Made by a program: the position numbers. This document shows positions 14,201 through 20,200 of a DNA stretch of 64,000 nucleotides, one piece after another. Positions within the stretch are counted from its first letter, which is position 1; each line of letters starts with the position of its first letter. Origin of the DNA: Malacoraja senta (lineage: Eukaryota); contig JAXLNO010004298.1 of the NCBI GenBank assembly GCA_038087875.1, forward strand, positions 1 to 64,000, read 5' to 3'.

Positions 14201-17200
14201 CTCAGCCTTTTGGCAGGCCAAAACTCCAACGTTTTGGGTTTTGATTAAAACATTGTCATTTTATAATCCATTTGGGAGTTCAAAATATGTAGGAAGGAAG
14301 TACAGATATTGGTTAATCTTTAAACCGAAGATAGACGCACAATGCTGGAGGAAATCAGCGGGACAGGCAGCCTATCTGGGGGAAGGAATCGACCCAGAGA
14401 CACTGCCTGTCCCGCTGAGTTACTCCAGCATTTTGTCTATCTTGGGGGTTCAAAACAGCGAAAATCCTCTGATTGGTGGTTGTTCATATTTTTAAATAGT
14501 TGTGTGCTGGACTCGAAAGGGAAAAACTTGCAGAGGAGCGGAATCACATCTACCTGGAATTGGTAGTGGTGGGGGAGGGGGGCACAAAGAAAATCGATAC
14601 TTTCATTTAGTTGCAAGTGGGGGCCTTGAATGCGGACCTGGGGGAAACACGACCCTCACTTACATAGACAGACAGTGTGGAGGAGGATGACCTGGGTGAA
14701 AATGCTCTTGCTTCCAGCCCCCCCCCCCCCCCCCGCAACCCACCCGCCAGATACAAAACCAGATGTTCTTCAAGATGGATTATAAAATGGCCTAATTTTG
14801 TTATCAAAACACAACGTGTTGGAGTAAGACAGCGGGCCAGGCAACAGGTTGCGATAAGAAGGAAGGGTTTACACCAAAGATAGACACTAAGTGCTGGAGT
14901 AACTCAGCAGGTCAGGCTGCATTTCTGGATAATATGGACAGATGATGTTTCGGGTCGAACCAAGACCAAATAAACAAAGAGTCGACTAGTTGCTATCAGC
15001 AGTTTTGTCACTTTTAAAATTTGGATATAAACATTAAGAATTTCACGTGCAGGAGCAACTCATCAACTTTCAACGTCTGAAATATATTTTCAAGAGATTT
15101 CTATAATATTCTCCAATTTCAGGTAGTCCCTGCTTTGTCCTTCCTTCCCCTCCCCCTTTCCAGCTCTCCCACAGCCCACTGTCTCCGCCTCTTCCTTTCT
15201 TCTTCCGTGCCCCCACCACCATCCTCAACCAAAGATCACAGAGCGGAGCTTTTGCCCAAAGATACTAGAGGATCTTTTGCCCCCCCGTATCTTTGCTTTG
15301 CACATCAGTCTGAAGAAGGGTCTCGACCAGAAACGTCACACATTCCTTCGCTCCGTAGATGCTGCCTCACCCCGCTGAGTTTCTCCAGCTTTTTGTCTAC
15401 CTTCGATTGTTCCAGCATCTGCAGCTCCTTCTTAAACAGAGAGTTGTATCATGTCATATGTTCCAAAACGGAACAGAAATTCTTACGTGTAGGAAGGAAC
15501 TGCAGATGCTGGTTTAAACCAAAGATACTAGAGGAGCTTTGGTTTAAACCGAAGATAGACTCAAAAACGCTGCAGTAACTCAGCGGGTCAGACAGTATAT
15601 ATATATTTTTTTAATTAGTGTTAATATTTAAATTCTCATCCTTAAACATGGCATTAACTGTGAAGCTTTGTTATACTTGCGCTGTGAATGTATCTAAACT
15701 GGTACACACGAAGGAACGCCTCGTACTCACGGAAAGGTCACCTGTACTGTGAGAACAAACTCAAAACAAAGTTACAACAAAACGAGAGGCCATTTGGCCC
15801 ATCATGTCGCTGTTGCGGGGGAAAATCAAGGCAATTTTCCAAAAGAAAATTCTTGCGTCGGACATTCTTGCTATTGTGGGAGTGCAGCGTAGGTTTACAA
15901 GGTTAATTCCCGGGATGGCGGGACTGTCATATGCTGAGAGAATGGAGCAGCTGGGCTTGTACAATCTGGAATTTAGAAGGAGAGGGGATCTTATTGAAAC
16001 ATATAAGATTATTAAGGGTTTGGACATGCTGGAGGGTTAGAGGTATACTGCACTGTATAGGCTATGCGTGGGAAAGCTGAGGAGTTTTGGCCCGGGCGAC
16101 GTCGCGCACAAAGTCCGGCACCCCATCCAACTCATGAACCGATGATCAGCCATGAGAAGGAGTGGTGGTGGTGGTGGTGTAGGCGGCATGGGAAGGTCGG
16201 AAGGTCGGCCCTTAATAATCTTATGTTTCAATAAGATCCCCTCTGATTCTTCTAAATTCCAGAGTGTACAAGCCCAGCCGCTCCATTCTCTCAGCATATG
16301 ATAGTCCCGCCATCCCGGGAATTAACCTTGTGAACCTACGCTGCACTCCCTCAATAGCAAGAACGTCCTTCCTCAAATTTGGAGACCAAAACTGCACACA
16401 ATACTCCAGGTGTGGTCTCACTAGGGCCCTGTACCACTGCAGAAGGACCTCTTTGCTCCAATACTCAACTCCTCTTGTTATGAAGGCCAACATGCCATTT
16501 GCTTTCTTCACTGCCTGCTGGAATCTATCTTAGTGGCCATCTTAGAGGAACAGACTTCTCCCTCCCTCCAAACCTCCCAACCCAAGTTTCCAATTCTGGG
16601 TGTGAGGACAGGAGACACAGAAGGAATCTGATGGGCCTGTCGCACTTAAGCGACTGCAGGAGACTATGCGGCCGCCACATGTTCGCGGGTGGTTGCCAGG
16701 GAGTCGCCTTCATGGTCGTGAGAAGTTCCCGCATTCTGGGAACTGGTCGCGGCTTCATTATGGTCGCCGCGAATTTTTCAACATGTTGAAAAATCAGCGG
16801 CAACTAGAATGAAGCCACCCATGGAGAGCAGCGAGAATTCTCGTTCAGTAGGTGGGTCGCCAGGAGGTCCTAATGGGTTGCCAGGAGGTCGAAGGTTCTT
16901 GGAGGTTCCCGTAGGTTGTAGCCGGTGCTGACCGGTGAATTTCATTGGCTCATTGTGGGGAAAAAAGGTAAGCAGTAGTTTTCAGAACCTAAGGATAACC
17001 AACCGATAATGTTAAATGTCCGCCGAGCTTCACAGCCGTGTATCTCTGGCTTCTTAAAAGTTGTCTCCACTGCTACTCCCCCCTTTTGTAAAGGACTTGC
17101 TGTACACGGTGCTTTAGCCTTCTTTTTACAGCTCCAACCTTCCTGTTCATCGCAGTGTGTGTCTGTTTCACCTCAAGTATCTTTGAGCAGGATGCTTTCC

Positions 17201-20200
17201 CCAACCACCCCCATTAGAAGGCCACTATCTTCCATCGTTTCTACCCAGTGCTTGGTACTTACTTCCAGCAGCCACTGCTTGTCCTCCAGGATGCACCGAG
17301 CCGCAGCCTGATCCATGCCGGTCACCTGGGTGAATTCAGCAGAGACTCTCACGGCAGCTGCGGAACGCTTCTGACTCCTCCGACGGCCCGGGACTCTTGC
17401 ACTGAGGCTGCTCCATGGCTGGAGCTGCAGCGAGCGACTCGCCAGCCCCAGCTCCCCATCCGCATCTGTCCCCGCCGCTGCTTCTGCTTCCATCCCTCCC
17501 TCAGCCCCAGCTCTCCAACACCCGCAGCACCCGGTTGATGAGTTTTGACATTTTCGTTGATCACAGAATTACTCACGACAAGAGCATGAGAAATTTGTGA
17601 TCAGCGTGAGAATTTGGCCAAATGCGTGCTTCTCACACTCGAGTCGCCGGCAGTCGTCTAAAAGATCGCCCAAGTGGGACAGACCCATCAGAGCTAGAGT
17701 GTTAAGCAGCCGGAGAAACTGAAGGGACGACCGTGTGTATTAGTGTGTGTTGGCCTTCATAGCAAGAGGATTTGAGTATAGGAGCAGGGAGGTTCTACTG
17801 CAGTTGTACAGGGTCTTGGTGAGACCACACCTGGAGTATTGCGTACAGTTTTGGTCTCCAAATCTGAGGAAGGACATTATAGCCATAGAGGGAGTACAGA
17901 GAAGGTTCACCAGACTGATTCCTGGGATGTCAGGACTTTCATATGAAGAAAGACTGGATAGACTTGGCTTATACTCGCTAGAATTTAGGAGATTGAGAGG
18001 GGATCTTATAGAAACGTACAAAATTCTTATGGGGTTGGACAGGCTAGATGCAGGAAGATTGTTCCCGATGTTGGGGAAGTCCAGGACAAGGGGTCACAGC
18101 TTAAGGATAAGGGGGAAATCCTTTAAGACCGAGATGAGGAAAAACTTTTTCACACAGAGAGTGGTGAATCTCTGGAACTCTCTGCCACAGAGGGTAGTTG
18201 AGGCCAGTTCATTGGCTATATTTAAGAGGGAGTTAGATGTGGCCCTTGTGGCTAAAGGGATCAGGGGGTATGGAGAGAAGGCAGGTACGGGATACTGAGT
18301 TGGATGATCAGCCATGATCATATTGAATGGCGGTGCAGGCTCGAAGGGCCGAATGGCCTACTCCTGCACCTATTTTCTATGTATCTACGTATCTATGTAT
18401 TAGGTGACTGAGTCAGGAAGAAAACGAGGGGACCCAGAAGATTTAATACACTTTTTTAAAATTTATTTTTCTCTCACTTATATTTGCTCTCATTTTATTT
18501 ACAGGCTCAATGAATGGGCTGTCAAGACGCGGAATTTAGACTTAAATCGAGTCTGTCGTCCATCTTTCTGCCCCTGAGCCCCGCTCCCGATGCGGTCCCG
18601 GGACCCCGACCCCCTTTTTTTTTACACGGCCGGATCGGGATCGGAGCAGATTCTCAGCCACTTGTTCTCGTCGCCGGTCCAGAAGAAAGGGTAGAGTTTC
18701 TCCGTGAATTTATTGCCGGCGTAGGTGTGGAGGTGCGACTTGGAGTCCGCGCTGTGAAAGGAAATGGTCCCCGGTTCGTAGTTGAGGCTGACCCGCACTC
18801 GCCCGGGGATGGGGTCGGCCGGGAGGGGGAACCCGGGTGAGGTGTTGACGTAGAAGCCGCCTCCAAACCGCCCGATGGTCCAGAATCCGTTCTCTGGGAC
18901 CACCCCCACCCACCCTCTCCTCTCCACCGACTCGGTGGCGACTCCCAGGCTCCAGATCTGGTTCTCCGCCACCTCCACCTCCCAGTGACGCCGCCCCGAG
19001 GTGAACCCCTCCGACCCCAGCACGCACGCCCACTCGGTGAACCTCTTGTCGGTGTCGGCCACGCTGCTCCAGGTCCCGCTCAGCCTCACGCTCCTCCGAT
19101 CCGCGGACACTTCCAGTCTCGGATTTGCCGTCTCCGGGTCCAGGCTCACGGAGGCTGGGAAGGTGGAGAAAGGAGAAACTCAGAGATATTTCAATAGAAC
19201 CCGAAACATCACCAATTCCTTCTCTCCAGAGATGCTGCCTGTCCCGCTGAGTTACTCAAGCATTTAGGGGTGGGAGATTGCAACCTTCATGTGGTCCGCC
19301 CTGTTTCGACGAATGCACAATCAATTAAGATCAAATAGAACAAGTTGTCCAACAACTTCTGGCTGCGCACGCCATACGCCAGACGACGACTCACGCATTT
19401 ATAGACAATAGGTGCCGGAGTAGGCCATTCAGCCCTTCGAGCCAGCACCGCCATTCAATGTGATCATGGCAGATCATCCACGATCAGTACCCCGTTCCTG
19501 CCTTCTCCCCATATCCCTTGACTCCACTATCTTTAAGAGCTCTATCTAATTCTCTGAGGCAGAGAATTACACACACTCAAAATGCTGTGTTCCTCAACTC
19601 TGTTCTAATTGGCTTAGCCCTTATTCTTAAACAGTGGCCCCTGGTTCTGGACTCCCCCTACATCAGGAACATGTTTCCTGCCTCTGGCGTGTCCAAACCC
19701 TTAACAATCTTATATGTTTCAATAAGATGCCCTCTCATCCTTCTAAACTCCAGAGTATACAAGCCCAGCCGCTCCATTCTATCAGCATATGACAGTCCCG
19801 CCATCCCGGGAATTAACCTCGTGAACCTACACTGCACTCCCTCAATAGCAAGAATGTACCTCAAGTTTGGAGACCAAACAGCACACAATACTCCATGTGT
19901 AGTCTCACTAGGGCCCTGTACAACTGCAGGAGGACTTCTTTGCTCCTATACTCGATTCGTCTTGCTATGAAGGCCAACATGAAGTGACTGATGAACAGTG
20001 ACCGATGCATGGGCAATGCAGTTTAATGTGGATAAATATGAGGTTATCCACTTTGGTAGCAAAAACAAGAAGGCAGATTATTACCTAAATGGTGTCAAGT
20101 TGGGAAAAGGGGAAGTACAACGGATCTGGGGGGTCCTTGTTCATCAGTCAATGAAAGTAAGCATGCAGGTACAGCAGGCAGTGAAGAAAGCGAATGGCAT

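What the first reader, a model, noticed from the sequence alone, without database searches (positions are those of the whole stretch)
16627..17692. Possible Pack-Harbinger element that captured TDP2 exon 1
Seen: 21-bp TIRs (19/21 match, with a shared tctgat extension absent from the other Harbinger ends here) enclose a MITE-like body plus about 470 bp containing upstream sequence, a complete 77-codon TDP2-like exon, its GTAAGT donor and about 90 nt of intron. No further TDP2 exons were found. Known: Pack-type DNA transposons capture genomic, intron-containing gene fragments, mostly described in plants; TDP2 has an N-terminal UBA-like domain. Inference: a mobile first exon that can splice a UBA-like domain onto downstream genes would be a vertebrate exon-shuffling vehicle.
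Basis: partly seen in the sequence, partly recalled or inferred. Interest (0 to 1): 0.65.

Follow-up and report, generated by a model that had tools for sequence, protein, structure and literature searches.

The report
Decayed TDP2 first-exon copy inside MITE
A short DNA transposon in a skate-like genome carries a copied, now frame-damaged first exon of the DNA-repair gene TDP2, a kind of gene-fragment capture already catalogued in vertebrates and with no sign here of being active or useful.

Summary
Inverted ends at 16627-16653 and 17666-17692 match over 27 nt at 85%, and only these two ends carry the TCTGAT extension. They enclose a minus-strand 77-codon ORF (17263-17493) followed by a GTAAGT donor. 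Annotated skate TDP2 proteins (Leucoraja, Amblyraja, Rhinoraja) show it is a TDP2 exon-1 homologue ending at the same exon boundary (...WLLE | RALNSYF). No other TDP2 exon lies in the 64 kb.

Three results are new:
- **One interrupted MITE.** The left piece matches positions 13-116 of an intact 227-bp MITE at 57557-57783. The right piece matches only its last ~45 nt. So this looks like one MITE holding at most ~820 bp of filler.
- **A damaged copy.** It has a ~19-nt and a 2-nt deletion that none of six comparison sequences has. The ORF stays open, but 31 codons are out of frame and the second ATG (the annotated Leucoraja start) runs into a stop.
- **An incomplete domain.** Exon 1 encodes only about two thirds of the UBA-like domain.

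Best reading (about 0.6): a decaying Pack-TIR-type capture. Such elements, including PIF-Harbinger ones, are already catalogued in vertebrates (PMC8277862). Copy number, the parental locus and mobility could not be tested, because no vertebrate genome collection was available. The exon-shuffling idea has no support.

The parts
16627..16653 (+). Left terminal inverted repeat, including the TCTGAT extension (16627-16632) and the family core GGGCCTGTCGCACTT (16633-16647)
   Evidence: sequence
16654..16911 (+). MITE body. 16726-16824 aligns to positions 13-116 of the intact MITE at 57557-57783. It contains a central palindrome (16751-16816) and a direct repeat (16691-16730 / 16876-16911).
   Evidence: score 27; shuffle maximum 15.5; 0 of 200 reach it; I2, 33-nt arms, 85%; 4 of 300 shuffles reach the direct-repeat score, marginal
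16912..17184 (.). Unassigned interior: either more TDP2 intron 1 or other filler. No relative in the window and no Pfam hit on either strand.
17185..17262 (-). Start of TDP2 intron 1 with the GTAAGT donor at 17262-17257. It is read through as 26 codons that match the unnamed ORFs P0008 and P0015 at 24/26 and P0002 at 19/26.
17263..17493 (-). Copy of TDP2 exon 1: 77 open codons from ATG 17493. It has a ~19-nt deletion at about 17437-17446 and a 2-nt deletion at 17339-17340. The second ATG at 17416 (MEQPQCK, the annotated Leucoraja start) runs into TGA after RESLC.
17494..17573 (-). Sequence upstream of the ATG that is shared with the unnamed ORF P0015. GCWRAGAEGG against GCWRAGTEGG is 9/10. Further upstream, NSVINENVKTH (window, another frame) resembles NSAINNNFKIH; that comparison is by eye.
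17574..17640 (.). Unassigned interior next to the right terminus, with no significant likeness to the intact MITE
   Evidence: 17500-17645 against MITE57: 143 of 200 shuffles reach the + score, 11 of 200 the reverse-complement score
17641..17692 (-). Right terminus: subterminal region plus the TIR (17666-17692, with the ATCAGA extension at 17687-17692). About 44 nt align with the ends at 57557, 57783 and 12739.

Best explanation
A non-autonomous PIF/Harbinger-type MITE (16627-17692) holds a piece of genomic DNA copied from the 5' end of the TDP2 gene. The piece comprises at least 80 nt of upstream sequence, exon 1, the splice donor and at least 78 nt of intron 1. It is a Pack-TIR in the sense of Tan et al. 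2021. The likeliest origin (inferred) is repair of a break inside a resident MITE by template switching to the TDP2 locus ('gap filling'), which that paper finds to be the main route in animals. Capture followed by transposition is the alternative origin. The copy is now decaying. Two deletions (~19 nt and 2 nt) put 31 codons out of frame, and an asparagine conserved in all six comparators and in the human UBA chain is now lysine. It most likely does nothing. Shown: the ends, the complementary MITE pieces, the TDP2 exon-1 homology with the same exon boundary, the deletions, and the absence of other TDP2 exons in 64 kb. Inferred: that the parental gene lies elsewhere, the capture mechanism, and the lack of function.
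For: (1) The ends are paired. The arms are 27 nt at 85%. The 6-nt extension occurs exactly at these two of the five family ends and nowhere else in the window. No inner TIR cores lie between them. (2) The MITE pieces are complementary. 16726-16824 matches MITE57 positions 13-116 (score 27, 0 of 200 shuffles reach it). 17641-17686 matches only its terminal ~45 nt. The central palindrome occurs once. (3) The insert is genomic TDP2 DNA. The exon ends exactly where annotated skate TDP2 exon 1 ends (WLLE | RALNSYF), with a GTAAGT donor and intron sequence shared with three unnamed read-through ORFs. (4) The copy looks non-functional. At the N1/N2 junction 5 of 5 comparators, and at the SLC|AEF junction 6 of 6, keep one frame where the window shifts. 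EDNQW is EDKQW only in the window. (5) No TDP2 exons 2-7 lie in the 17.2 kb downstream or anywhere else in the window. (6) There is little room for a native promoter. Only ~150 nt of non-repeat DNA lies between the ATG and the MITE end, followed by a LINE fragment (17744-18298) and the last exon of a B30.2 gene on the same strand at 18625-19179. CpG o/e of the exon is 0.65 against a window median of 0.56, so there is no CpG island. (7) The kind is known in vertebrates, PIF-Harbinger included (PMC8277862).
Against: The parental TDP2 locus was not seen, and the copy number in the source genome is unknown. The frame from ATG 17493 to the donor is open because the two deletions sum to 21 nt. That is also what selection on a real exon would demand; I estimate roughly a 1 in 10 chance under neutral decay, which is not a computed figure. 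No target-site duplication is readable: the flanks are GAA/GCT outside the extended TIR, AT/AT or TGA/TCA if the ends are set at or next to GGGCC, and none is the 3-nt TWA recalled for PIF/Harbinger. The left arm shares only the 15-21-nt core with other ends. Introns over 17 kb are plausible in a genome this rich in repeats, so the missing exon 2 is weak evidence. The window also holds PPT2-like and B30.2 exons. Their human counterparts lie, from my recall, on the same chromosome arm as TDP2, so a native or nearby TDP2 locus is not far-fetched.
Confidence: 0.6

Rival explanations
1. This is the real 5' end of the species' TDP2 gene. Two MITE fragments of the same family happen to lie about 150 nt upstream of the ATG and about 350-600 nt into intron 1, and exon 2 lies beyond the left edge of the window.
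For: There is an open 77-codon frame from an ATG that Amblyraja and Rhinoraja TDP2 models also use. The donor is intact. The two deletions compensate each other. The closest relative, P0008, is 24/26 identical in the UBA part and could be an orthologue. The flanking genes (PPT2-like, B30.2) have human counterparts on the TDP2 chromosome arm (the synteny is recalled).
Against: It needs two independent insertions in the same orientation, each having lost exactly its inner end, and a chance 6-nt complementary flank. The frame differs from all six comparators, and the second ATG (the annotated Leucoraja start) is dead. No exon 2-7 lies within 17.2 kb. There is no 4HBT/ACOT13-like exon on the opposite strand among the 150 of 158 plus-strand ORFs of 40 aa or more scanned between 17.4 and 37.6 kb, whereas in human ACOT13 sits head-to-head with TDP2 (recalled). 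There is no CpG island. No protein of 136 aa or more containing this exon is in the 5.8-billion-protein set.
Confidence: 0.17
2. It is one member of a mobile, multi-copy Pack-Harbinger family that spread TDP2 exon 1 around skate genomes. The unnamed ORFs P0002, P0008 and P0015 are other copies. With promoter, ATG and donor, such copies can donate a first exon to downstream genes.
For: Four distinct versions of exon plus intron read-through exist (the window, P0008, P0015, P0002). None is seen joined to exon 2 in the protein sets, while the three annotated skate TDP2s carry a different N-terminal variant. P0015 differs from P0008 only by 4 replacements, all inside the conserved part, which looks unconstrained. 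The shared TIR extension would fit a distinct subfamily.
Against: Only 1 hit among 34 candidates in the 'near' search, and 1 relevant hit in the 1.84-billion-protein representative search. That is far fewer than a high-copy repeat would be expected to leave, although ORF calling on such contigs is haphazard and I ran no calibration with a known repeat. The unnamed ORFs may simply be orthologues from unannotated skate species. Their contigs could not be fetched, so their flanks are unknown. There is no TSD and no second copy in the 64 kb. Most animal Pack-TIRs are single-copy (PMC8277862).
Confidence: 0.12
3. A TDP2 5' fragment was duplicated by another route (a segmental duplication, or carriage by a different element nested in the MITE). 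The MITE is only the landing site and played no part.
For: About 340 nt of the interior (16912-17184 and 17574-17640) are of unknown origin. The window shows other local duplication: a 4-kb tandem repeat at 98.5% identity.
Against: No terminal features of another element were recognised. There is no poly(A) tract at the 3' side of the fragment, and the retained intron argues against retroposition. Rfam finds nothing.
Confidence: 0.08

Closest known systems
Pack-TIRs of animals (Tan et al. 2021, Nat Commun 12:4280, PMC8277862)
   Same: Non-transposon host DNA flanked on both sides by pieces of one TIR transposon. The captured piece is small (their median is 224 bp). Exonic and 5' sequence is over-represented. 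PIF-Harbinger cases are listed for Xenopus laevis in their Supplementary Data 1. (Passages read; supplement passages.)
   Different: Their definition requires an identified parental copy, which I could not look for. The one cartilaginous fish in their scan (elephant shark) had 0 Pack-TIRs, so a skate case would be a new lineage. Here the filler may be up to ~820 bp.
Pack-MULE / Pack-CACTA / Pack-TYPE elements of plants (PMC8903248 and PMC6379663: search listing and start of abstract only)
   Same: Non-autonomous TIR elements carrying intron-containing gene fragments, often 5' ends of genes.
   Different: A different superfamily and kingdom. The plant families are often multi-copy with clear TSDs. 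Neither feature is shown here.
PIF/Harbinger-derived MITEs (Tourist-like)
   Same: Short, palindrome-rich non-coding elements with GGGCC-type termini (family features recalled). An intact 227-bp relative lies at 57557-57783 in the same window.
   Different: The 3-nt TWA target-site duplication recalled for the superfamily is not readable at any of the five ends in the window. No transposase was seen, so the superfamily assignment rests on the terminal motif alone.
TDP2 (tyrosyl-DNA phosphodiesterase 2) exon 1 / N-terminal UBA-like domain
   Same: The same exon boundary as in Leucoraja, Amblyraja and Rhinoraja TDP2. The UBA part is 23/26, 23/26 and 19/27 identical. The best PDB match is the TDP2 UBA chain 6q00_B.
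   Different: Two frame-changing deletions and an N-to-K change. The window has no catalytic (Exo_endo_phos) exons of TDP2. Exon 1 alone lacks the last third of the domain.

Membership tests
Pack-TIR / Pack-type transposon | Both ends are pieces of one TIR transposon family, facing inward | tested here: met
   27-nt arms at 85%. The core is shared with three other ends in the window. Left piece = MITE57 positions 1-116; right piece = its terminal ~45 nt.
Pack-TIR / Pack-type transposon | The interior is host, non-transposon DNA of genomic (intron-bearing) origin | tested here: met
   TDP2 exon 1 plus donor plus at least 78 nt of intron plus at least 80 nt upstream
Pack-TIR / Pack-type transposon | A parental copy of the captured DNA exists elsewhere in the same genome | not testable with these tools
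   No vertebrate genome collection was available. There is no second copy within the 64 kb. Annotated TDP2 genes exist in three related skates.
Pack-TIR / Pack-type transposon | Target-site duplication and/or further copies with the same TIRs (evidence of mobility) | tested here: inconclusive
   Flanks are GAA/GCT, AT/AT or TGA/TCA depending on where the end is set. The contigs of the three unnamed relatives could not be fetched.
PIF/Harbinger MITE | Family termini and short non-coding palindromic body | tested here: met
   Core at 5 sites against 0.17 expected. Body homology to the intact 227-bp copy. No Pfam domain in the body ORFs on either strand.
PIF/Harbinger MITE | 3-nt TWA target-site duplication (recalled feature) | tested here: not met
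   None of the five ends in the window shows it cleanly. The copies are old, so this weakens the superfamily label rather than the MITE label.
TDP2 gene (functional locus) | Exon 1 in the frame shared by orthologues | tested here: not met
   A ~19-nt and a 2-nt deletion. 5 of 5 and 6 of 6 comparators keep one frame at the two junctions.
TDP2 gene (functional locus) | Downstream exons encoding the Exo_endo_phos catalytic domain | tested here: not met
   None in the window. The only Exo_endo_phos hit (10098-10271) is the LINE endonuclease next to RVT_1 ORFs. Exons beyond the window edge cannot be excluded.
UBA-like domain (Pfam UBA_4, PF14555) | Score above the curated cutoff over the whole domain | tested here: not met
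   Window peptide 17.7-18.5 bits against the 21.8 cutoff, covering profile positions 5-32 of 43. The intact-frame relative P0008 passes at 26.5 bits but still covers only positions 2-31.

The most novel reading that the evidence does not exclude
The window copy, P0008, P0015 and P0002 are members of one transposition-competent Pack-Harbinger family in skates. Each carries promoter-proximal DNA, an ATG, two thirds of a UBA-like domain and a phase-0 donor. The family can therefore donate a ready-made first exon to genes it lands upstream of, which would be the first multi-copy exon-donating Pack element in a cartilaginous fish.
Probability: 0.1. Interest if true: 0.6.

Novelty: new member of a known kind. 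Interest (0 to 1): 0.3.

Why it matters
If confirmed, it adds a cartilaginous-fish, Harbinger-type case to the catalogue of animal Pack-TIRs; the only chondrichthyan scanned there had none. It would also be a tidy example of a whole first exon, with its donor, caught inside a MITE. It does not change how such captures are understood. This copy is frame-damaged, carries an incomplete domain and has nothing to splice to nearby, so it is evidence for capture, not for exon shuffling. In practice it is a trap for gene annotation, because it could be taken for a spurious TDP2 first exon.

Tried and rejected
- **Homologue searches with the window peptide.** The 'longer' search found none among 414 candidates. 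The representative search gave one relevant hit, P0002. Of the four others at E up to 1e-3, P0003 was fetched and is an unrelated Myb-repeat protein; P0004-P0006 were not fetched.
- **Search for TDP2 exons 2-7.** Pfam on 150 of 170 minus-strand ORFs (the 150 longest, 33 aa or more) left of 17300 gave only LINE RT/EN. Recalled motifs gave no TDP2 hit. tblastn gave only sub-significant hits.
- **The 17-aa hit at 39452-39502(-).** It spans the exon 1/2 junction (9/17 identical, E 0.7). It was checked by BLASTP of the whole 271-aa ORF and rejected as chance, because nothing else aligns.
- **Search for a head-to-head ACOT13-like (4HBT) gene.** None among 150 of 158 plus-strand ORFs of 40 aa or more between 17.4 and 37.6 kb, nor among 150 of 161 further plus-strand ORFs. 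A recalled HGG motif gave only repeat-derived hits. Single short exons can escape Pfam.
- **CpG-island test.** Uninformative: exon o/e 0.65, window median 0.56.
- **A large palindrome made by the two flanking LINE fragments** (93-nt arms, 88%). Rejected: they are no more alike than other copies of that abundant repeat in the window (77-91%).
- **A decayed inner TIR near 16940-16960.** No significant likeness to the MITE57 right end or to the element's own right end (131 of 200 and 193 of 200 shuffles reach the scores).
- **Rfam on 16000-18500.** No match at E up to 1.
- **Not scanned by Pfam.** Plus strand 37.6-64 kb; minus-strand ORFs under 65 aa right of 17600 (150 of 202 ORFs of 55 aa or more were scanned).

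
Full report
**What is at the coordinates**

The window is repeat-rich vertebrate DNA. Its closest protein relatives are skate proteins (see below). Nothing in it looked human. The three N runs (21592-22064, 22187-22588, 50798-50997) were left as they are.

The repeat finder reports inverted arms at 16627-16653 and 17666-17692, 27 nt long and 85% complementary.

The 15-nt core GGGCCTGTCCCACTT occurs five times in the window at up to 2 mismatches, against 0.17 expected; 0 of 100 shuffles reach 5. 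The sites are:
- the two ends in question;
- both ends of an intact 227-bp MITE at 57557-57783;
- a solo end at 12739.

The six extra bases TCTGAT/ATCAGA occur at the two ends in question and nowhere else in the window. The other three ends have unrelated flanks.

On the minus strand, 17263-17493 is an open 77-codon frame from an ATG. GTAAGT follows at 17262-17257.

**Is the exon TDP2?**

The window peptide on its own is only suggestive. Pfam UBA_4 gives E 0.0031, below the cutoff. The best PDB chain is the TDP2 UBA domain 6q00_B, at E 0.98.

The identification became firm in steps:
- The exhaustive representative search gave P0002, an unnamed 110-aa ORF (E 3.6e-9).
- A 'near' search with the contiguous genomic read-through ORF (P0007) gave P0008, an unnamed 112-aa ORF (E 9.7e-28, 1 hit among 34 candidates).
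- P0008 passes the UBA_4 cutoff (26.5 bits) and matches the TDP2 UBA chain at E 5.4e-5.
- A 'longer' search with P0008 found annotated TDP2 of Rhinoraja longicauda (P0009) and Leucoraja erinacea (P0010) (2 of 1244 candidates).
- Amblyraja radiata TDP2 (P0011) and a further unnamed ORF, P0015, came from the cluster look-up.

In all three annotated proteins exon 1 ends ...NQW(L/V)LE and the protein continues RALNSYF.... The window's exon ends at the same residue.

The unnamed ORFs do not continue into exon 2. They read through the donor into 26-28 intron codons that match the window (24/26, 24/26 and 19/26). P0015 also shares sequence upstream of the ATG (9/10 residues; further upstream by eye in another frame).

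So at least 17185-17573 is genomic TDP2 5'-end DNA.

I searched this single exon and its contiguous genomic read-through only. The frame-corrected join of the window's three segments was deliberately left out, and the segments were compared one by one.

**The copy is damaged**

Compared with every relative, the window reads in three pieces:
- ATG...GLAS in one frame;
- AGESL...RESLC in another frame;
- AEF...WLLE back in the first frame.

The first two pieces overlap by 10 nt and lack three codons (VCR/VCG), which amounts to a ~19-nt deletion between direct repeats. The last two pieces overlap by 2 nt, which is a 2-nt deletion.

At the first junction 5 of 5 comparators keep one frame. At the second, 6 of 6 do.

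Because 19 + 2 = 21, the frame from ATG 17493 stays open. However, 31 of its 77 codons are out of frame. The second ATG (17416, MEQPQCK), which is the annotated start in Leucoraja, now runs into TGA after RESLC.

The asparagine of EDNQW is conserved in all six comparators and in the human chain. It is lysine in the window.

**Exon 1 is not a whole domain**

The Pfam match stops at about position 31-33 of the 43-position profile. The solved UBA chain continues into RALNSY, which is exon 2.

**Is it one element?**

The left piece is more than a TIR. 16726-16824 aligns with positions 13-116 of the intact MITE, including its central palindrome (score 27; shuffle maximum 15.5; 0 of 200 reach it).

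The right piece aligns only with the terminal ~45 nt. 17500-17645 shows no likeness to the MITE.

The two pieces therefore complement each other without overlap. There is no inner TIR. The outer flanks share six complementary bases.

Two independent insertions would need all of the following:
- the same orientation;
- loss of exactly the inner end of each;
- a chance 6-nt match.

I consider that much less likely than one MITE interrupted by filler of at most ~820 bp (16825-17640). That judgement is reasoning, not a computed probability.

A target-site duplication is not readable. The flanks are GAA/GCT outside the extended TIR, and AT/AT or TGA/TCA if the end is set at or next to GGGCC.

**Surroundings**

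- Downstream on the minus strand, 17.2 kb holds no TDP2 exon. It holds a LINE (RT and endonuclease ORFs at 5-10.3 kb) and other repeats.
- Upstream, only ~150 nt separate the ATG from the MITE terminus. Then come a LINE fragment (17744-18298, +) and a PRY-SPRY (B30.2) exon on the same strand at 18625-19179 (PRY E 7e-20, SPRY E 3e-18).
- On the plus strand, palmitoyl-protein-thioesterase exons lie at 22592-22738, about 23.8 kb and 26634 onward. They look like PPT2 by recalled motifs.
- No 4HBT/ACOT13-like exon was found in the ORFs scanned. In human, ACOT13 sits head-to-head with TDP2 (recalled).
- CpG o/e does not mark a CpG island.

**Mechanism and comparison with what is known**

The anatomy is that of a Pack-TIR. 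Tan et al. 2021 (PMC8277862; passages read, supplement passages) catalogued 370 such elements in 100 animal genomes, 81 of them vertebrate. Their main findings bearing on this case:
- most are single-copy and are attributed to transposition-independent gap filling, with a bias towards nearby parental copies;
- PIF-Harbinger cases are listed for Xenopus laevis;
- the elephant shark, the only cartilaginous fish scanned, had none.

I therefore favour a break in a resident MITE repaired by template switching into the TDP2 5' region, followed by neutral decay. The mechanism is inferred.

The rival that this is the true gene keeps about 0.17. The rival of a mobile multi-copy family keeps about 0.12. 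Four sequence variants of this exon exist in public data, none seen joined to exon 2, but they may be orthologues from unannotated skates, and their contigs could not be fetched.

**What stayed unchecked**

- Copy number and the parental locus in the source genome.
- The flanks of the three unnamed relatives.
- RNA evidence.
- Pfam on the plus strand from 37.6 to 64 kb.
- Papers other than PMC8277862 were seen only as search listings with the start of the abstract.

**Verdict**

The functional reading (an exon-shuffling vehicle carrying a UBA domain) is unsupported. The kind is already known in vertebrates. Interest 0.3.

Noticed in passing
window 57557-57783: Intact 227-bp MITE of the same family, with both termini, a central palindrome and a very high CpG o/e (1.38). 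It served as the reference copy. A solo end of the family lies at 12725-12739(-).
   Followed up: partly
window 18625-19179 (-): 185-aa open frame with PRY (E 7e-20) and SPRY (E 3e-18) domains. It looks like the terminal B30.2 exon of a TRIM/butyrophilin-like gene, about 0.9 kb upstream of the element on the same strand. Its other exons were not located.
   Followed up: no
window 22592-22738, about 23770-23900, 26634-26750 (+): Three exons of a palmitoyl-protein thioesterase (Pfam Palm_thioest). By recalled motifs they are PPT2-like (DPHHHDLYL..., [18 protein letters not shown]...WHSN). The first abuts an N run, and the upstream exons were not found in unmasked sequence.
   Followed up: partly
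window 41700-45723 and 46771-50797: A 4-kb direct tandem duplication at 98.5% identity, containing LINE RT ORFs. The second copy ends exactly at the 200-N run (50798-50997), so it could be an assembly artefact at a gap.
   Followed up: partly
window 5000-10700 (-): A large LINE with RVT_1 (E about 1e-27 in two ORFs), zf-RVT and an Exo_endo_phos_2 endonuclease ORF, broken into several frames. It is the only Exo_endo_phos signal in the window and is not TDP2.
   Followed up: yes
window 16221-16529 (-) and 17744-18298 (+): Two 5'-truncated tails of an abundant LINE (...LVRPHLEYCVQFWSP...) flank the element in opposite orientation (93-nt arms, 88%). At least eight further copies of this tail lie in the window at 77-91% identity, so the symmetry looks coincidental.
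   Followed up: yes
proteins P0008 and P0015 (unnamed Logan records): The two ORFs are identical over the N-terminal 50 and the intron-derived 28 residues. They differ by 4 replacements clustered between the residues just before the UBA-like part and its end (R>C, V>L, G>S, E>K). This pattern is odd for orthologues under purifying selection and is unexplained.
   Followed up: no
window 38936-39748 (-): A 271-aa open frame with no Pfam hit. It contains a 17-aa stretch resembling the TDP2 exon 1/2 junction (9/17 identical), judged to be chance.
   Followed up: yes
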